Of a DNA stretch of 64,000 bases, positions 14,593-20,609 are shown piece by piece; positions within the stretch are counted from its first letter, which is position 1, and the number at the start of each line of letters is the position of its first letter. The notes below the pieces were generated by a model that worked only from the letters and a program-made list of their open reading frames with translations, ran no database searches and was not told where the DNA came from. A program made the translations under genes and the position numbers. Origin of the DNA: an uncultured Rhodospirillaceae bacterium (GTDB lineage: Bacteria > Pseudomonadota > Alphaproteobacteria > UBA9219); contig CAZZDK010000002.1 in NCBI GenBank assembly GCA_964652235.1, positions 38,675-102,674 on the forward strand, in the 5' to 3' direction.

Positions 14593-15531
14593 ATGGCCCG
14601 TGCCTATGGCGCGAACGCGCAGCTATTGGGTTCTTTTGAAACCATCTACGGAACCCCGCCCGCGAACGGCTTTATCAAATTTCCTTTTGTTTCCTCGCAG
14701 CTTGGTTCCGAGCAAGGGCTGATCGCCTCGGATTTGCTCGGCACAGGCCGCGATCCCGCGCAGCCCATGCGCGATGTGATTAATGTCGAGGGCGATGTCG
14801 TCGCGCCCGTCGATCTGCGTAACTTCGGCCATTGGCTCAAAGCCTTGCTTGGCACGCCGACGAGCAGCGGGACAGGCCCTCACGTCCACACCTATCATTC
14901 AGGCGTGACAAACCTGCCCAGCCTATCGCTTGAAATCGGCATGCCGGAAGCTGCCGCTTTCTTCATGAATATGGGTGTGCGCGTCAATTCTATGCAATTG
15001 ACCTTTGCCCGCTCCGGCGGTGCAAACGCGACGTTGAACTGTATCGCCCAAGGCGAAAGCCGTGCGGCAGCAAGCGCAGGCGGAACGCCGAGCGAGGCCA
15101 TCATCACGCGGTTCAATCAGTTTCAAGGCAGCGTGAAGAAGGATGGCGCGCAGCTCGGCAACGTCACGGGCGCGCAGCTGACCTACACCAACAACCTCGA
15201 AAAGATCGAAACGATCCGTTCGGACGGCAAGATCGATGGCGCGGATCCCACGATTGCCGCGCTGACAGGAACCATCGATGTGCGCTTTGCGGACACGGCG
15301 CTCATCGATGCTGCGACGAACAACACGCCTGTGGCGCTTGAGTTTGGCTACGTCATCGACGCCAGCCGTTCGCTTCTGTTCACGGCGCACCAAGTCTATC
15401 TGCCCAAACCCAAGCTCGCCATCTCCGGCCCCGGCGGCGTGCAGGCCAGCTTCAACTGGCAGGCCGCAAAGCCCGACGCAGGCCAGATGCTGACCGTCAC
15501 CCTGACTAATGATGTGGAGGATTACGCTTAA
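14593..15531 (+). CDS. Major tail (tube) protein
   Basis: ATG at 14593 with GGAGGA SD; 313 aa; immediately upstream of tail chaperone; ORF-track N-terminal extension from 14311 overlaps previous gene and is rejected. Confidence 0.5.
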   Translation: MARAYGANAQLLGSFETIYGTPPANGFIKFPFVSSQLGSEQGLIASDLLGTGRDPAQPMRDVINVEGDVVAPVDLRNFGHWLKALLGTPTSSGTGPHVHTYHSGVTNLPSLSLEIGMPEAAAFFMNMGVRVNSMQLTFARSGGANATLNCIAQGESRAAASAGGTPSEAIITRFNQFQGSVKKDGAQLGNVTGAQLTYTNNLEKIETIRSDGKIDGADPTIAALTGTIDVRFADTALIDAATNNTPVALEFGYVIDASRSLLFTAHQVYLPKPKLAISGPGGVQASFNWQAAKPDAGQMLTVTLTNDVEDYA

Positions 15532-15881
15532 TGATTAAACTCAATCTGAAACGCGAGGACTACTGGCTCGATCTCGGCTTTGGCGTGAGGGTCAATGTTG
15601 CGCCCTTAAGCACAGCGCTTGTCATGGCCGCCCGTTCGGCGGCTGCGGCGAAGATCCAGTCTACCGATGAGGCGGTCGGCGCGCGTGCGGCAGGGTTTCT
15701 GACCGAGCTGGCGCAAATAGCCTTTATCGCGTGGGAAGGCATTTGTGACGAGAACGGCGAACAGGCCGCCTTCACAGACGAAAATGTTCAGGCGCTTATG
15801 CAGCTCTGGCCCATCGCGGACGCTTTCGAGCGGCTCTATCTCACGCCATCGCTTCTTTTGGAGCAGGAAAAAAACGGTTAG
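15531..15881 (+). CDS. Tail assembly chaperone (gpG-like)
   Basis: 116 aa acidic protein between major tail and tape measure; ends with slippery A_AAA_AAC (15869-15875) followed by stop. Confidence 0.55.
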   Translation: MIKLNLKREDYWLDLGFGVRVNVAPLSTALVMAARSAAAAKIQSTDEAVGARAAGFLTELAQIAFIAWEGICDENGEQAAFTDENVQALMQLWPIADAFERLYLTPSLLLEQEKNG

Positions 15882-16230
15882 AGGCTCGCTGCAAATGGCA
15901 CTTTGGCGGCGGGCCTGATTATTGCGCTTCCTGCGCGGAGGCCAATCTTCCATGCAGCAAGGGGCTCCCCAACAAGGACGGGGAGCTATGCCCCTATTGC
16001 GCGAACGAGCCAAAAACAAACGAAGGATGGCAGGCATGGGACATCGCTCTGCGGTGCGCGGGGCAGCTTCGCATGACCAAGTTTGTCGTCATCGGCCTTG
16101 ACATGGGAGCGGCACTCAAGATCGGCGAAGCTCTTGGCTATGACCGAACGGGCTTAGCCGAGTTTCTTCCTTCCTGCGAGTCTGGCATGGTGTCAGCAAT
16201 CAACGCGAAAGTTAATGAGGGCTTAAAATG
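15531..16230 (+). CDS. Predicted -1 frameshift fusion product of the tail chaperone (gpGT-like), extension 15876-16230
   Basis: The -1 frame is open from the slippery heptamer to 16230 (about 116 extra codons) with no independent start; extension contains CxxC/CxxC pairs (DYCASC, LCPYC). Confidence 0.45.
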
Positions 16231-16251
16231 ATCCCTCACATCTTGGGATCA

Positions 16252-16995
16252 TCAGGCAATGTCAAGAATGAGGGCGCTATGATCCGAGAGGCCCGTTTCT
16301 CTTGGCGTGTGATCATAAGTGCATTTTGTCTCTTGAAACTTGTCCAAGAATTGCTTGTTTGCAAAAGCATGATCGATGCGAAAGCCGCTTTTTGATGAAC
16401 GCCAAGACCATTCCCGCGCGGTATCGCCATGTTCGTTGCGCCAAAGATCTGTGAGACGGCTCTTTCGGGTCAGATCCAAGAAAAGATCTTCGCAGGGAAA
16501 CTTTGTCGTCCCGTGCTCCTTATCCGTTGAACAGCAACCCGTATTCAAGTCGCCAAGGAGCAGGAAAGGTTTTCCTTGATGCTCTTTGGCCAGCTTGGCG
16601 CAGGCATGAAAAAACGGAACCTTTTTCTGGCCCAATGGAAAATAACAGGCGCACAGAGAAAAATGCGGAAAGTGGATAAAGCCCAGTTCCTTGGAACCAA
16701 AATCTGGCGATTGCACAGGATTGGCGCGGTGTTGATTGTTCTTTGAAGCAAAAAACACGCTGCTGGTTTTGCCTTTATCAAAGGCACAGAAGGGATGGAC
16801 GCAATATCCCAACCTTAAGAGGGCTACGATAAAATAGAATCCTGCTTCGCTGTATTTCCATTCCGACAGCACAATATGATCCGGCTCTTGTCTGCATAGC
16901 CATTCGACAATTTGGGGGGCTCTTTTGCCCCCACCCTGACAGACATTAAGCGAAACGATCCGTTCCACGAAATCACCACACATTCCAGAAGCCAC
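16252..16995 (-). CDS. Endonuclease/exonuclease/phosphatase (EEP) family protein, moron
   Basis: C-terminal LSDHSALILDI (EEP SDH motif), N-terminal SLNVCQGG; AT-rich relative to flanking tail genes; opposite strand. Confidence 0.55.
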   Translation of the reverse strand: MASGMCGDFVERIVSLNVCQGGGKRAPQIVEWLCRQEPDHIVLSEWKYSEAGFYFIVALLRLGYCVHPFCAFDKGKTSSVFFASKNNQHRANPVQSPDFGSKELGFIHFPHFSLCACYFPLGQKKVPFFHACAKLAKEHQGKPFLLLGDLNTGCCSTDKEHGTTKFPCEDLFLDLTRKSRLTDLWRNEHGDTAREWSWRSSKSGFRIDHAFANKQFLDKFQETKCTYDHTPRETGLSDHSALILDIA

Positions 16996-17030
16996 AAGGC
17001 TTCTTCCTTCTTGTTCGCAAGGAACTATAT

Positions 17031-19328
17031 ATGGTTGAGCGCAATCTTGCTATCCGCTTGTCCGTCATGGATGGCGGCAAGGTCAAGGCCGAACTCAAGG
17101 AAATTGGCGAGTCTGGCGAGAAATCGCTCAAAAAGATCGAGTTAGCCGGACAGCCCGCCTCCAAAGCCCTAAACGCCTTGAACGCCGTCGCCAATGACGT
17201 GAAAGGTGCGGCAGTCGGTCTTTCAAGCGGGATCGGGCCTCTCGGCTCCGCGTTGATGTCCATCGGCCCCGCTGGCCTTGCGGCGGCGGCAGGGATCGCG
17301 GCCATTGTGGGCATTGTGTCGGCGGGCACGCAGGCTCTTTTGGAAGAAGAAAAGGCAGCTAAGCGGCTTAATGCCGTGTTACAGGCCACGGGATACACGT
17401 CCGGTCTGACAGGCAATCAGATTGGTGATTTTGCCGAGGGTTTGGCAAAAGCAACAGGCGTTCAGGACGAAGCGATTACTTCTGCGGCGGCAACGCTGGC
17501 GGCCTATCGCTCTGTGTCAGGGGATGTCTTTACCGAAACCCTGAGACAAGCCGCCAATCTCAGCGCCGTGTTCGGCGGTGATCTAGACAGCAACGTGCAG
17601 GCTCTCGGCAAGGCGATGGAGATGCTGGCGGGCGGGCAAGCCGAAGGGTTGCGCAAGGCCTTCAAAGCCCTCAGCGGCCCGCAGGAAGATTTGATCAAAC
17701 GGCTGGCGGAGTCTGGGCGAGGCCTTGAAGCCCAGCAGGCGCTTCTTAAGGCTTTGGATAGTTCCTTGCACGATACCGCCGCCAATCTCGCCACGACTTC
17801 ATCCAAGATCGGCGTGGCTTGGGACGATTTGCTCAAGCATTTCGGGAATACAGGTCCGATCAACTGGGCCAAGAAGGAATTGTTAAGCCTTCTCGAAGGC
17901 ATGAACGATGCCCTGAAACCGGAAGATATTTCGGTCAAGCTCGCCGCGATGGTCAAGCAGCGCAATGCCATCCTCGCTTATGAGGAAAAGAACAAAGGAC
18001 GGTACGATTTTAACAGCGAGTTTCGCCGTCAGCAGCTTGAGAAGCTCAGCGCGGAAATCCCGATCCTTGAAAAAAAGGTCAGACTTGAAGACGAACTGCG
18101 CCAGAAGGCCACAGCCGCCGCCGCGCAGCAAGGGCGCGACGACGAGCTTCAACATGAGATCGCAAGCGAAGACAAACTGGTCGAACAGGCAAAGAAAGAG
18201 GAAGAAGCCAATCAAAAAATTGTCGATGATCTGAAACGCCAGTTACTCGGTCTTCGCAATGAACGACAGGCTTTTATCGAGCAAGCCCTTTCGCGCCTTT
18301 CCGACAACGCGGACGAAAGCAAAATCAGCCAGACCCGCGACATCGCCGGAAGGCTGTTCGATCAAAAGGCTTTTGCGGATGCGAAAAAGGTTCTTGATGA
18401 CCTTGCGCGCCAGATTGAAAAAACGACCGACAAGAAACAAGCCTTTGTCGATGAATATCTCGCAAAGCTTCCCAAGGGCATTTCCAAGGAGGTCATTGAC
18501 CGCACCAAGGAATGGGCCGCCGTCGCTTACGACCAGATCCAAGCGCGGGAAAAACTCGACAAGCTCAAAGAGGAAGGCAAACAGCTTACCGAGAGCGACA
18601 AAACAGCCACCGAAGGCTACGCCGATCAAGTCGCCAAGCTCAACGAGCTTCTGAACGCCGGAGCCATCAGCCAAAACATTTACAACCGCGCCAAAAGCAA
18701 AGCCGCCGAGCAGCTTTTGGCGGGGCGCACAGATCCACAGGCTGGAGCACTTCGGGCTTTTGCCTCCTATCAAAAGGAAGCCGAAAACACAGCGGGCGCG
18801 GTTGAAAAGGCTTTTGGCGAGGCCATGAAGGCAACCGAGGACGCGATTGTGAACATGGTCACGTCCGGCAAAATCAGCCTAAGCAGCTTAGGAGACTTTG
18901 CCGACAGCATTGTCGCCGACATCACGCGCATGTTTGTGCAGAAATCGATCACGGGGCCGCTCTTCAAAGCCCTGAGTGGCAGCATGGAAAGCGGCGGCTT
19001 CTTGGACAGCATCATGAGCGCCCTTTCTTTCCACGAGGGTGGCACGGTTGGCGAAACCTCGGCGCGGTTGATGGTTCCCTCTTATGTATTCGCAGGCGCG
19101 CCCCGTTACCACGGCGGCGGCATTGCGGGTCTGAAGCCCGACGAGGTTCCGGCTATCCTGCAACGCGGCGAGGAAGTCATTTCGAGAAAAGACAGAAAAA
19201 GCCGTTCCGCAGGCGTTAGTGTCGTCATGCACATCACAACCCCAGATGCGAACAGTTTTCGGGCCAGCCAAAGCCAGATCTCGGCGGAAGCGGCTCGTGG
19301 AATCAACAGGGCAAAGCGCAATTTATAG
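17031..19328 (+). CDS. Tail tape measure protein
   Basis: 765 aa, Ala/Gly-rich N-terminal TM-like region, long coiled-coil Glu/Lys/Gln-rich centre, position after G/GT. Confidence 0.7.
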   Translation: MVERNLAIRLSVMDGGKVKAELKEIGESGEKSLKKIELAGQPASKALNALNAVANDVKGAAVGLSSGIGPLGSALMSIGPAGLAAAAGIAAIVGIVSAGTQALLEEEKAAKRLNAVLQATGYTSGLTGNQIGDFAEGLAKATGVQDEAITSAAATLAAYRSVSGDVFTETLRQAANLSAVFGGDLDSNVQALGKAMEMLAGGQAEGLRKAFKALSGPQEDLIKRLAESGRGLEAQQALLKALDSSLHDTAANLATTSSKIGVAWDDLLKHFGNTGPINWAKKELLSLLEGMNDALKPEDISVKLAAMVKQRNAILAYEEKNKGRYDFNSEFRRQQLEKLSAEIPILEKKVRLEDELRQKATAAAAQQGRDDELQHEIASEDKLVEQAKKEEEANQKIVDDLKRQLLGLRNERQAFIEQALSRLSDNADESKISQTRDIAGRLFDQKAFADAKKVLDDLARQIEKTTDKKQAFVDEYLAKLPKGISKEVIDRTKEWAAVAYDQIQAREKLDKLKEEGKQLTESDKTATEGYADQVAKLNELLNAGAISQNIYNRAKSKAAEQLLAGRTDPQAGALRAFASYQKEAENTAGAVEKAFGEAMKATEDAIVNMVTSGKISLSSLGDFADSIVADITRMFVQKSITGPLFKALSGSMESGGFLDSIMSALSFHEGGTVGETSARLMVPSYVFAGAPRYHGGGIAGLKPDEVPAILQRGEEVISRKDRKSRSAGVSVVMHITTPDANSFRASQSQISAEAARGINRAKRNL

Positions 19329-19639
19329 GCCTGAACCCCGCACAAAAGCTTGTTTTCTGTTGACCAAAGAAGGGCTTACGTCCATTCTGTCCTTGCGGGC
19401 GGACGAAAGTCTATCCGCTGGGGTGTAGTTACCTCACGATGAACGGTATTTGCGTCACGTTACGGCGCTGCCAATCGGTCGTCTTCGTATGGCCGGGGGG
19501 CGGCGGCGGATTTTTGCGCAAGCAAAAGTCTGGATGTCCAAGCTTAGGCTAAAGGCCGTCGCAATCGTTTCATCGCGATTAACTAACCCCCGTGCCGCCC
19601 GATTTTCGGGCGGCGCCCACTCAAACAACGGGGAAACCG

Positions 19640-19804
19640 ATGAACAACATTAGCACCTTGCAACTCTGCGCTGACTTTTTGAAAGCCTATTTTGGCAATC
19701 CCACTATTCTGACACTTTTTGCTGTTCTCATTTTAGGTGTGGGCGTGAGCCTGCGCCTTAAGAAAATCGAGAAGACCATCCCGTCTATTCACAGAATTCG
19801 ATAA
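19640..19804 (+). CDS. Small membrane peptide (54 aa), moron
   Basis: ATG at 19640; one hydrophobic helix ILTLFAVLILGVGV; AT-rich. Confidence 0.3.
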   Translation: MNNISTLQLCADFLKAYFGNPTILTLFAVLILGVGVSLRLKKIEKTIPSIHRIR

Positions 19805-19827
19805 CCCAAATCGAGGCTAAGAAATTC

Positions 19828-20043
19828 ATGCGCATCAATCTGTTAGATCCAGCGTTTTCTGACTCTTATCAACGCCTGTCATTAGCACTTGCGGACACTA
19901 TACGAGCAAAAGGCTCATGCTGCCGTGAAGACATGGCGAACAACGGGTTCTCTGGCGATGAGATTCGCTCTTGCTGGAACATTGCATACGGGCTTGCTCA
20001 CGTCGAATTGATGGACAGCCGGAACGATGTCGTTCTGCATTGA
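19828..20043 (+). CDS. Small hypothetical protein (71 aa), moron
   Basis: ORF only. Confidence 0.25.
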   Translation: MRINLLDPAFSDSYQRLSLALADTIRAKGSCCREDMANNGFSGDEIRSCWNIAYGLAHVELMDSRNDVVLH

Positions 20044-20176
20044 ATTTCATGGATAAAAGAAGGTCTAACGACGATCTTGCCTTCATGGCTTAGCATGCGG
20101 TTAAATGGCGTAACGATAACAAAAAGGGCGGGCCGCCCCTTCGCGGCCATGCTTTCCTTTTACGAGAGAGTTCGAT

Positions 20177-20587
20177 ATGTCCTTGATCCATTGGAACAGC
20201 GAAATGAGTGTTGGGATTCCGTCTATCGACGCCCAGCATCAAAAACTTGTAGAGATGCTCAACAAGCTTCACGGCGCGACCTATCAGGGCAAAGGGCATG
20301 AAGTTGTCGGCGATACGTTGACGGGCTTAATGAACTACACGATTGAGCATTTTGCTTATGAAGAAAAACTCTTTCAGGAAACAAGCTATCCGGACGCTGA
20401 GGCTCATGCAGCTGAACATGCCACCTTAACCCGCAAAGTGATGGACATCCACGAAAAGTTCAAAAGCGGCGTGACAACAGCCTTGACGCAGGAAGTCCTT
20501 CTCTTCCTTGTCAACTGGGTCATGGATCACACGATGGACAGCGACAAAAAATACAGCGCGCATTTGATCGCTGCTGGGGTTCGATAA
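20177..20587 (+). CDS. Bacteriohemerythrin (HHE cation-binding domain)
   Basis: N-terminus IHWNSEMSVGIPSIDAQHQKL and H-x(n)-H-E / H...D iron ligands typical of hemerythrin. Confidence 0.7.
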   Translation: MSLIHWNSEMSVGIPSIDAQHQKLVEMLNKLHGATYQGKGHEVVGDTLTGLMNYTIEHFAYEEKLFQETSYPDAEAHAAEHATLTRKVMDIHEKFKSGVTTALTQEVLLFLVNWVMDHTMDSDKKYSAHLIAAGVR

Positions 20588-20609
20588 CCCCCAAGCCCAA
20601 GGATAAAAT

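What the first reader, a model, noticed from the sequence alone, without database searches (positions are those of the whole stretch)
15861..16230. Programmed -1 ribosomal frameshift (A_AAA_AAC) in the tail assembly chaperone giving a gpG/gpGT-like pair; extension carries zinc-ribbon-like CxxC pairs
The chaperone ORF ends with the codons gaa aaa aac ggt tag. The classic slippery heptamer A AAA AAC (15869-15875) lies 4 nt before the stop.

The -1 frame is open without any start codon for about 116 further codons, to the TGA at 16230. This reproduces the lambda G/GT arrangement between the major tail and tape measure genes.

The extension contains DYCASC and LCPYC motifs. These are unusual for T-domains.
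Basis: seen in the sequence. Interest (0 to 1): 0.55.

Follow-up and report, generated by a model that had tools for sequence, protein, structure and literature searches.

The report
Frameshifted phage tail assembly chaperone
A prophage tail gene contains a conserved "slippery" site that most likely lets a minority of ribosomes slip back one base and make a longer chaperone protein; this is the textbook lambda G/GT arrangement, with one modest new detail, a conserved four-cysteine (probably metal-binding) motif in the extension.

Summary
The 116-codon chaperone gene (15531-15881) sits between the tail tube gene and the tape measure gene. It ends ...GAA AAA AAC GGT TAG, with A_AAA_AAC at 15869-15875. 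The -1 frame runs on for 118 codons to a TGA at 16229-16231, not 16230.

The heptamer and the open frame alone are not beyond chance. Comparison with relatives is decisive:
- All 90 related loci readable at the site (38-81% identical, plus three ~33% phage groups) carry a canonical heptamer at the same aligned position: 77 A_AAA_AAC (including the window), 12 G_GGA_AAC, 1 A_AAA_AAA.
- In seven loci a -1-frame stop directly abuts the heptamer.
- Substitutions in the extension concentrate at third codon positions of the -1 frame.
- A conserved GC-rich hairpin (-20.8 kcal/mol here) starts 6 nt downstream, with constrained synonymous sites.

Rhodobacter RcC-cluster phage homologues are already annotated in GenBank as joined chaperone genes, so this is a new member of a known kind.

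The zinc-ribbon reading is only partly right. Four cysteines (CxxC, C, C) are near-invariant, but the second cysteine of CPYC is not, and the model is helical. The extension's C-terminal part is Pfam DUF7697, which databases hold only as start-less fragments.

The parts
14593..15531 (+). Tail tube (major tail) gene, immediately upstream. Its stop overlaps the G start.
   Evidence: Pfam Phage_tube_2 with E 5.9e-57, and phrog_290.
15531..15881 (+). G: the short tail assembly chaperone, 116 aa, the zero-frame product, ending ...LLEQEKNG*.
   Evidence: - ORF seen.
- phrog_313 'tail assembly chaperone', E 3.3e-9.
- About 33% identical over the G+T fusion query to the annotated chaperone pair of Rhodobacter RcC phages.
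15869..15875 (+). Slippery heptamer A_AAA_AAC. The P-site codon is AAA (15870-15872) and the A-site codon is AAC (15873-15875).
   Evidence: A canonical heptamer sits at the same aligned position, 27 nt before the W codon of WHF, in all 90 loci readable at the site: 77 A_AAA_AAC (including the window), 12 G_GGA_AAC, 1 A_AAA_AAA.
15879..15881 (+). Zero-frame stop TAG, one codon after the heptamer (the 'short-G' architecture).
   Evidence: 56 of 92 loci have a stop at this exact position (TAG 22, TAA 17, TGA 17). The other 36 continue for 16-47 codons.
15882..15916 (+). Predicted stimulatory hairpin, 6 nt 3' of the heptamer. The core stem pairs 15883-15889 with 15909-15915, and the apical loop lies over the Trp-His codons.
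   Evidence: - MFE -20.8 kcal/mol, z -3.28, 0 of 200 shuffles as stable.
- 83% of cells paired across 81 sequences, against 34-56% for slid registers. Three pair types occur at the closing pair.
- Comparable hairpins in 9 of 10 diverse relatives.
- Synonymous sites in both arms are constrained.
15875..16231 (+). T extension in the -1 frame: 118 codons plus TGA (16229-16231). The GT fusion is join(15531..15875, 15875..16231), 233 aa.
   Evidence: - Translation.
- Substitutions by codon position 541/335/1294 in 23 relatives.
- The codons directly after the heptamer vary synonymously in the -1 frame but not in the zero frame.
- AF2 model with pLDDT 89.8, pTM 0.79.
15923..15991 (+). Conserved four-cysteine motif of T: C17 (15923-15925), C20 (15932-15934), C27 (15953-15955) and C39 (15989-15991). 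It is preceded by invariant W8, H9 and Y16.
   Evidence: In 90 distinct T sequences, C17 is present in 89, C20 in 90, C27 in 85 (the other 5 are alignment gaps) and C39 in 90. C42 (15998-16000) is present in only 17 of 90 and C6 in 44 of 90.
16088..16213 (+). C-terminal part of T that matches Pfam DUF7697 and phrog_11212.
   Evidence: - PF24752, 56.4 bits against a cutoff of 27. phrog_11212, E 3.5e-14.
- All 74 database homologues are 68-178 aa 'hypothetical' fragments, 72 of them carrying this domain, none of them a G-T fusion.
16252..16995 (-). Not part of the frameshift unit. A reverse-strand EEP-family nuclease gene sits in a low-GC ~800-bp insertion that separates T from the tape measure gene.
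   Evidence: Pfam Exo_endo_phos, E 7e-6. GC 0.47-0.51. In close relatives the T stop and the TMP start overlap as TAATG.
17031..19328 (+). Tape measure protein gene, the presumed client of G/GT.
   Evidence: Pfam Tape_meas_lam_C, E 9e-21. phrog_24, E 2e-30.

Best explanation
This is the tail assembly chaperone gene pair of a lambda-like siphovirus prophage, expressed by -1 programmed ribosomal frameshifting.

Most ribosomes decode G (116 aa) and terminate at TAG 15879-15881.

A minority slip back one nucleotide. This happens when tRNA-Lys sits on AAA (15870-15872) and tRNA-Asn on AAC (15873-15875), so that they re-pair with AAA_AAA (15869-15874). A GC-rich hairpin (15882-15916) reaches the mRNA entry channel at that moment. 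These ribosomes then read CGG TTA GAG... to TGA 16229-16231 and make a 233-aa GT fusion.

By analogy with lambda, the shared G part binds the tape measure protein. The T part, a helical domain with a conserved Cys4 (probably zinc) site and a DUF7697 C-terminal half, recruits the tail tube protein. Neither protein ends up in the virion.

Shown here: the sequence features, their conservation, the coding signature of the -1 frame, RNA-level constraint on the hairpin, and the chaperone-like fold of G.

Inferred: that slippage actually occurs, its efficiency, the binding partners, and metal binding.
For: 1. Context. The gene order is head decoration protein D, capsid E, head-tail attachment, DUF6441, tail terminator, tail tube, G, T, then tape measure.

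3. Heptamer conservation. All 90 related loci readable at the site have X_XXY_YYZ at the same aligned position. Three different heptamers occur, so it is the motif class that is conserved, not merely the sequence.

4. Shift window. In L073, L078, L079 and L082-L085 a -1-frame TGA lies immediately 5' of the heptamer. In 56 loci the zero-frame stop is one codon 3' of it. Across the family the only place to change frame is the heptamer.

5. Coding signature. The codons just after the heptamer vary as CGN and YTA, which is silent in the -1 frame, while the zero-frame codon changes between Asp, Gly and Ala. Substitutions in T fall 541/335/1294 by -1-frame codon position.

6. No independent start. 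The -1 ORF has no start codon before 16073, and that Met is Thr in 5 of 9 close relatives.

7. Hairpin.
- In the window it is -20.8 kcal/mol with z -3.3.
- 9 of 10 diverse relatives fold a hairpin 4-7 nt after the heptamer, -15 to -33 kcal/mol.
- 83% of cells are paired, against 34-56% in slid controls.
- In short-G loci, which have no overlapping ORF there, four-fold third positions of Gly11-13 have 0.0-0.5 bit entropy against 1.1-1.9 elsewhere. Ala4 and Arg5 third positions are almost only C or T, opposite G.
- The Rhodobacter phages have their own perfect 10-bp stem at the same place.

8. Existing annotation. GenBank annotates the Rhodobacter phage RcHotPocket homologues as a short CDS plus a joined CDS, both called 'tail assembly chaperone'.

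9. Mechanism of the family. The lambda G:GT ratio is 30:1, and its T domain binds the major tail protein (PMC5009743).
Against: - There is no direct evidence of the fusion protein: no proteomics or ribosome profiling.
- A_AAA_AAC is much less shift-prone than A_AAA_AAG in E. coli (PMC5009743), so efficiency in the unknown alphaproteobacterial host is uncertain.
- The hairpin's 3' arm encodes invariant Gly-Gly-Gly-Pro, so part of its conservation is protein-driven. True double-sided covariation is limited to a few pairs.
- Metal binding by the four Cys rests on conservation only. I could not inspect the model's geometry.
- The window has a run of seven A, so some transcriptional slippage cannot be excluded.
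Confidence: 0.92

Rival explanations
1. Transcriptional slippage. RNA polymerase adds one A in the A7 run (15868-15874). A fraction of mRNAs then carries G and T in one frame, and the ribosome never shifts.
For: The window and most relatives have 7 consecutive A. Insertion of one A would give access to the same -1 ORF.
Against: - Twelve related loci use G_GGA_AAC, with only three A. Three use GCA_AAA_AAC, with six A. All keep the same architecture.
- What is conserved is the X_XXY_YYZ register relative to the zero frame, together with a hairpin at ribosomal spacing. Polymerase slippage requires neither.
- From general knowledge, efficient bacterial transcriptional slippage usually needs runs of about 9 or more.
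Confidence: 0.04
2. The downstream ORF is an independent small gene, as databases annotate it: 52-143-aa 'hypothetical protein, DUF7697'. It would be translated from an internal start such as ATG 16073.
For: Gene callers produce such ORFs. All 74 close database homologues are short stand-alone proteins, and Pfam and PHROGs built families from them.
Against: - The called N-termini differ from cluster to cluster, 68-178 aa.
- Met 16073 is not conserved.
- Amino-acid conservation, including invariant W8, H9, Y16 and the four Cys, together with the third-position substitution bias, extends upstream right to the heptamer, where there is no start codon.
- In seven loci the -1 ORF opens exactly at the heptamer.
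Confidence: 0.02
3. A frameshift mutation or a homopolymer sequencing error in what is really a single G-T ORF (a pseudogene or an artefact).
For: Homopolymer runs are error-prone. Two related loci in one genome have N inside the site. A few database proteins look like in-frame fusions, for example P0078 and P0146.
Against: The same interrupted arrangement occurs in all 90 readable loci, drawn from many assemblies, technologies and isolated phages, including non-homopolymeric G_GGA_AAC sites. Both frames are under purifying selection.
Confidence: 0.01

Closest known systems
Bacteriophage lambda G/GT tail assembly chaperones (-1 frameshift at G_GGA_AAG; Levin, Hendrix & Casjens 1993; Xu, Hendrix & Duda 2004, 2013, 2014, as cited in PMC5009743)
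   Same: - Position between the major tail and tape measure genes.
- A short product plus a -1 frameshift-extended product that share an N-terminus.
- A canonical X_XXY_YYZ heptamer near the end of G.
- Lambda-type head genes (D, E, FII-like) in the same prophage.
   Different: - The heptamer is A_AAA_AAC, with an Asn codon in the A site, rather than G_GGA_AAG.
- G stops one codon after the slip site.
- A strong conserved hairpin follows the site. From memory, lambda is described as needing no downstream stimulator.
- T has no detectable sequence similarity to lambda T; there was no Pfam hit other than DUF7697.
- T carries a conserved Cys4 motif.
Tail assembly chaperone pair of Rhodobacter capsulatus RcC-cluster phages (RcHotPocket genes 16/17, RcDormio, RcKemmy and others; PMC8601537; GenBank MW677515)
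   Same: - True homologues: about 33% identity over G+T.
- The same gene order.
- The slip site is at the homologous position, followed by a hairpin at the same place.
- The same WHF...YCxxC...C...C motif.
- Already annotated as a joined CDS.
   Different: - The heptamer is G_GGA_AAC.
- G continues about 30 codons past the slip site.
- The Cys motif is compact (CxxCx3CxxC), whereas the window has a 6 + 11 residue expansion (CxxCx6Cx11C).
- T abuts the tape measure gene, whereas the window has an 800-bp insertion there.
Pfam DUF7697 (PF24752) / phrog_11212
   Same: The C-terminal 42-50 residues of the extension match with scores well above threshold.
   Different: These families are defined as stand-alone proteins of unknown function. 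Here, and in all the related loci examined, the matching segment is the end of a start-less -1 ORF that is reachable only from the chaperone gene.
E. coli dnaX (A_AAA_AAG, downstream hairpin, upstream SD-like element)
   Same: A -1 shift on an A-rich heptamer, stimulated by a stable hairpin about 6 nt downstream. The zero-frame and -1-frame products share an N-terminus.
   Different: - The A-site codon is AAC, not AAG.
- There is no conserved Shine-Dalgarno-like element at 10-14 nt upstream. The upstream columns are conserved only as Leu-Glu/Asp codons.
- The shift extends the protein instead of truncating it.

Membership tests
Frameshift-expressed tail assembly chaperone pair (lambda G/GT type, Xu et al. 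2004) | Two overlapping ORFs located between the major tail (tube) gene and the tape measure gene. | tested here: met
   Tube gene 14593-15531 (Phage_tube_2), G 15531-15881, T to 16231, TMP 17031-19328. In close relatives T abuts the TMP gene.
Frameshift-expressed tail assembly chaperone pair (lambda G/GT type, Xu et al. 2004) | A slippery sequence in the overlap, in register with the upstream frame, that allows a -1 shift into a start-less downstream ORF. | tested here: met
   A_AAA_AAC at 15869-15875 in X_XXY_YYZ register. The -1 ORF has no start codon before 16073.
Frameshift-expressed tail assembly chaperone pair (lambda G/GT type, Xu et al. 2004) | Conservation of the arrangement among diverged relatives. 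| tested here: met
   All 90 loci readable at the site have a heptamer at the homologous position, in three sequence variants. The -1 frame shows a coding signature.
Frameshift-expressed tail assembly chaperone pair (lambda G/GT type, Xu et al. 2004) | The upstream protein has the tail-assembly-chaperone fold or family. | tested here: met
Frameshift-expressed tail assembly chaperone pair (lambda G/GT type, Xu et al. 2004) | Both products are made, at a low GT:G ratio, and both are required for tail assembly. | not testable with these tools
   This needs proteomics, reporter assays or genetics.
Lambda T domain (Pfam Phage_tail_T) | Sequence match of the extension to the lambda T family. | tested here: not met
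   An hmmscan of the GT fusion against Pfam at E up to 0.1 returned only DUF7697.
Pfam DUF7697 (PF24752) | Score above the gathering threshold. | tested here: met
   56.4 bits against a cutoff of 27, over fusion residues 187-228. 72 of the 74 close homologues carry PF24752.
Zinc ribbon | Two conserved CxxC (or CxxH) knuckles. | tested here: not met
   Only the first CxxC is conserved. The second Cys of CPYC is present in 17 of 90 sequences. The conserved set is C17, C20, C27 and C39.
Zinc ribbon | Knuckles borne on beta-hairpins that form a small three-stranded sheet. | tested here: not met
   The AF2 model (pLDDT 79-89 in this part) has short helices at residues 18-22, 26-29 and 40-43 and no strands in residues 1-70.
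Generic Cys4 structural metal site | Four invariant Cys close in space that coordinate a metal. | tested here: inconclusive
   Invariance is shown. Metal binding needs experiment.
Stimulatory RNA hairpin of -1 PRF | A stable structure starting 5-9 nt 3' of the heptamer, conserved beyond coding constraint. | tested here: met
   - 6-nt spacer, -20.8 kcal/mol, z -3.3.
- 83% of cells paired against 34-56% in slid registers.
- Synonymous-site entropy is 0.0-0.5 bit in the 3' arm, and the 5'-arm third positions (about 1.0-1.1 bit) are almost only C or T, against 1.1-1.9 elsewhere in loci with no overlapping ORF.

The most novel reading that the evidence does not exclude
The T domain of this widespread chaperone family (623 clusters at 50% identity) would be a previously undescribed Cys4 metal-binding module. 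It is catalogued only as start-less fragments under DUF7697.

Its N-terminal coding sequence (A-R-x-x-W-H-F-G-G-G-P) would double as the frameshift-stimulating hairpin. The first 14 codons of T would then be under joint protein and RNA selection.

The family's near-exclusive use of an Asn (AAC) A-site codon would reflect hosts in which AAG is not shifty.
Probability: 0.55. Interest if true: 0.35.

Novelty: new member of a known kind. Interest (0 to 1): 0.22.

Why it matters
Practical value is mainly for annotation. Hundreds of database entries labelled 'hypothetical protein / DUF7697' are really the frameshift-dependent half of a tail assembly chaperone. They should be joined to the upstream gene. 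The conserved heptamer plus hairpin gives a simple rule for doing so in alphaproteobacterial prophages.

Biologically, the family offers a clean comparative data set: 90 sites, three heptamers, and short-G against long-G architectures. It could be used to ask which signals tune G:GT ratios in bacteria where A_AAA_AAG is not used.

The invariant Cys4 site suggests a metal-dependent step in tail-tube recruitment that has not been described for lambda-type chaperones.

None of this changes the textbook picture.

Tried and rejected
- **Heptamer enrichment.** AAAAAAC is not over-represented in the window. A mechanical screen shows that heptamer plus long -1 ORF occurs several times by chance or through gene overlap. 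I therefore dropped raw-pattern statistics as evidence.
- **Long-range structure or pseudoknot.** Folding 85-nt and 181-nt windows gave unremarkable z-scores of -1.3 and -1.6. Only the local 45-nt hairpin is significant. I found no support for a pseudoknot, but did not run a dedicated pseudoknot search.
- **RNAalifold.** On the 81-sequence alignment it recovers only the 6-bp core with a weak covariation term. The register differs by one in Rhodobacter phages, so a single family-wide consensus structure is an approximation.
- **Upstream Shine-Dalgarno-like stimulator.** GGAG at 15860-15863 is too close and is not conserved. Rejected.
- **First locus search.** The first attempt to search genome contigs with a very diverse alignment failed because it had no conserved block. 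I repeated it with closer sequences.
- **Literature.** Searches for DUF7697/PF24752, and for zinc together with tail assembly chaperone, found nothing relevant.
- **Possible in-frame fusion.** DNA for representative P0078 was not available.
- **Defence function of the inserted gene.** A PADLOC scan of the inserted EEP gene and its neighbours gave no hits.

Full report
**1. Observation.** The sequence is as described. The ORF 15531-15881 (116 aa) ends GAG CAG GAA AAA AAC GGT TAG. A_AAA_AAC occupies 15869-15875 in X_XXY_YYZ register, and the stop is at 15879-15881. Read from 15875, the -1 frame gives 118 sense codons, RLEARCKWHFGGGPDYCASC...NEGLK, ending at TGA 16229-16231. The -1 frame is open from 15749 and has no ATG, GTG or TTG until 16073.

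On its own this pattern is not statistically remarkable in 58% G+C DNA:
- The heptamer occurs 24 times in the window against 21.7 expected.
- 23% of all six-frame codon positions lie in stop-free runs of at least 160 codons.
- A mechanical screen finds six ORF ends in the window with an in-frame heptamer and a -1 extension of at least 100 codons.

**2. Context.** The window carries a lambda-like prophage. Its genes are a gpA-type terminase, a lambda-family portal, an S49 protease, head decoration protein D, capsid E, a head-tail attachment protein, DUF6441, a tail terminator, a Phage_tube_2 tail tube (14593-15531), the ORF in question, a 765-aa tape measure protein (17031-19328), and then DUF2460, BR0599 and Rcc01698-like distal tail genes.

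**3. Relatives.** I collected three sets:
- A viral-contig scan with the extension gave 9 full loci at 69-81% identity.
- A genome scan gave 80 more at 38-81% identity. They come mostly from Alphaproteobacteria: Rhodospirillales, Defluviicoccus, Magnetospirillum, Thalassospira and many MAGs.
- tblastn against phage genomes found ~33%-identical homologues in eleven Rhodobacter capsulatus phages (the six described RcC-cluster members plus five later isolates), a Nostoc phage, a Synechococcus phage and a gut phage contig.

In RcHotPocket the two genes are already annotated as a short CDS and a joined CDS, both 'tail assembly chaperone'. The phage paper treats the frameshift as the usual feature of these genes (PMC8601537).

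**4. The slip site is conserved as a motif, not just as sequence.** Across 92 loci (91 relatives plus the window), a canonical heptamer lies exactly 27 nt upstream of the W codon of the conserved WHF motif. There are 77 A_AAA_AAC, 12 G_GGA_AAC and 1 A_AAA_AAA. Two loci have N inside the site.

In seven loci the -1 frame is closed by a TGA immediately 5' of the heptamer (TC TGA AAA AAC). In 56 loci the zero frame is closed one codon 3' of it. Taken across the family, the only place where the frame can change is the heptamer itself.

**5. The -1 frame is coding from the heptamer onward.** The two codons that follow the heptamer vary as CGN and YTA. These changes are silent for Arg-Leu in the -1 frame, while the overlapping zero-frame codon changes between Asp, Gly and Ala. 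Over 23 gap-free relatives, differences from the window fall 541/335/1294 on -1-frame codon positions 1/2/3.

The internal Met at 16073 is Thr in five of nine close relatives. This argues against independent initiation.

Databases nevertheless hold the extension only as 68-178-aa 'hypothetical proteins'. Their N-termini depend on wherever a start codon happens to lie, and 72 of the 74 carry Pfam DUF7697. None is a G-T fusion. An exhaustive profile search finds 623 clusters at 50% identity. These are again mostly 52-150-aa fragments, with a few longer entries that are upstream -1-frame read-through or apparent in-frame fusions. DUF7697 and phrog_11212 are therefore best read as the C-terminal half of a frameshift-dependent T domain.

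**6. Stimulatory structure.** The 45 nt after the heptamer fold into a single hairpin (15882-15916) with a 6-nt spacer, -20.8 kcal/mol, z -3.28 and 0 of 200 shuffles as stable. Nine of ten diverse relatives give an equivalent hairpin 4-7 nt after the heptamer, at -15 to -33 kcal/mol and z -2.1 to -4.95.

On an ungapped alignment of 81 distinct sequences, 83% of cells in the 11-bp stem are paired, against 34-56% when the 3' arm is slid by 1-3 nt. The closing pair occurs as C-G (19), G-C (11) and A-U (9).

The 3' arm encodes invariant Gly-Gly-Gly-Pro, so I tested synonymous sites. I used the 54 distinct short-G sequences, where no other ORF overlaps:
- The four-fold third positions of Gly11, Gly12 and Gly13 have 0.51, 0.00 and 0.31 bit of entropy, against 1.1-1.9 bit at comparable sites elsewhere in T.
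- The third positions of Ala4 and Arg5 are C or T almost without exception, always opposite a G.

This is RNA-level selection. The Rhodobacter phages have a different, perfect 10-bp stem (GCGCCCUUGC/GCAAGGGCGC) at the same place. It is achieved with different amino acids: Arg to Leu in the 5' arm and Gly to Lys in the 3' arm. I found no conserved upstream SD-like element and no evidence for a pseudoknot.

Among 90 distinct T sequences:
- W8, H9, Y16, C20 and C39 are invariant.
- C17 is present in 89 of 90.
- C27 is present in 85 of 90. The other five are gaps in a length-variable loop.
- C6 is present in 44 of 90.

The ancestral form seen in the Rhodobacter and Nostoc phages is a compact CxxCx3CxxC. 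The window's lineage has expanded the loops to CxxCx6Cx11C. A structural Cys4 metal site is the most economical reading. A classical two-knuckle beta zinc ribbon is not supported. Metal binding is an inference.

**8. Mechanism.** The best explanation is canonical tandem -1 slippage of tRNA-Lys and tRNA-Asn on A_AAA_AAC, promoted by the hairpin. It yields mostly G and a minor GT fusion, join(15531..15875, 15875..16231), 233 aa. By analogy with lambda, the G:GT ratio there is 30:1, G binds the tape measure protein, and T binds the major tail protein (PMC5009743).

The family almost never uses an AAG A-site codon, although A_AAA_AAG is the most shift-prone heptamer in E. coli. A plausible but untested reason is that the alphaproteobacterial hosts have a separate tRNA-Lys(CUU), which would make AAG non-shifty.

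Transcriptional slippage on the A7 run could contribute in this window. It cannot be the conserved mechanism, because of the G_GGA_AAC and six-A variants.

**9. Verdict.** The finding is real and correctly interpreted, but it is an instance of a textbook mechanism, and phage homologues are already annotated that way. The modest new points are:
- the identification of DUF7697 with the T domain;
- the near-invariant Cys4 motif;
- the dual protein/RNA coding of the first 14 T codons;
- the derived 'short-G' architecture.

Interest is low to moderate.

Noticed in passing
window 16232-17030 (gene 16252-16995, minus strand): An ~800-bp low-GC (0.47-0.51) insertion sits exactly between the T stop and the tape-measure start, which overlap as TAATG in close relatives. 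It carries a reverse-strand endonuclease/exonuclease/phosphatase-family gene. The gene has no PADLOC match and no homologue in any of the 91 related loci.
   Followed up: partly
related loci L008, L009, L017, L022-L025, L030, L043, L050, L053, L057, L060, L062, L063, L065, L066, L068, L070, L090: In about 20 relatives the tape measure gene starts 0.4-2.2 kb after the T stop instead of abutting it. The T/TMP junction therefore looks like a recurrent insertion hot spot for different cargo.
   Followed up: no
window ~19400-20600 (hemerythrin gene 20177-20587): A second low-GC stretch (0.48-0.50) lies between the tape measure gene and the DUF2460 tail gene. It encodes a hemerythrin-domain protein (Pfam E 5e-13) and two small ORFs. 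This is an unusual passenger inside a tail gene cluster.
   Followed up: partly
L073, L077-L085 (OZ220716.1, a 2.4-Mb 'Gammaproteobacteria' MAG chromosome): One small genome carries at least ten diverged copies of this chaperone module at different chromosomal positions. Seven of them have a -1-frame TGA abutting the heptamer.
   Followed up: no
heptamer +4 to +6 in 56 of 92 loci (window 15879-15881): The zero-frame stop sits exactly one codon after the heptamer, using TAG (22), TAA (17) or TGA (17). This includes loci with G_GGA_AAC. The other 36 loci extend G by 16-47 low-complexity codons. Whether the close stop influences frameshifting, or merely trims G, is unknown.
   Followed up: partly
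proteins P0078 (251 aa) and P0146 (259 aa) from the representative library: These look like continuous in-frame G-T fusions without a Lys-Asn or Lys-Lys junction (…LLDAERTRLLHRAEW…, …LLGEAKERIRNLTAWHF…). They may be natural variants that need no frameshift, or assembly errors. The DNA was not retrievable.
   Followed up: partly
proteins P0066 and P0043: P0066 joins a primase-polymerase-like N-terminus to a T domain. P0043 is a mosaic of a DUF2460 N-terminus, the T Cys region and a tape-measure N-terminus. Both are probably chimeric assemblies or recombinants.
   Followed up: no
L046 and L052 (Defluviicoccus sp. SSA4, CP058705.1): Both copies in this 'complete' genome have N characters inside the slippery A-run, which suggests unresolved homopolymer length in the assembly.
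   Followed up: no
G homologues: All 115 database homologues of G are unnamed or 'hypothetical'. About a third carry a Pfam accession (PF27119) that is absent from the Pfam copy searched here, so G may already have a new family assignment that I could not read.
   Followed up: no
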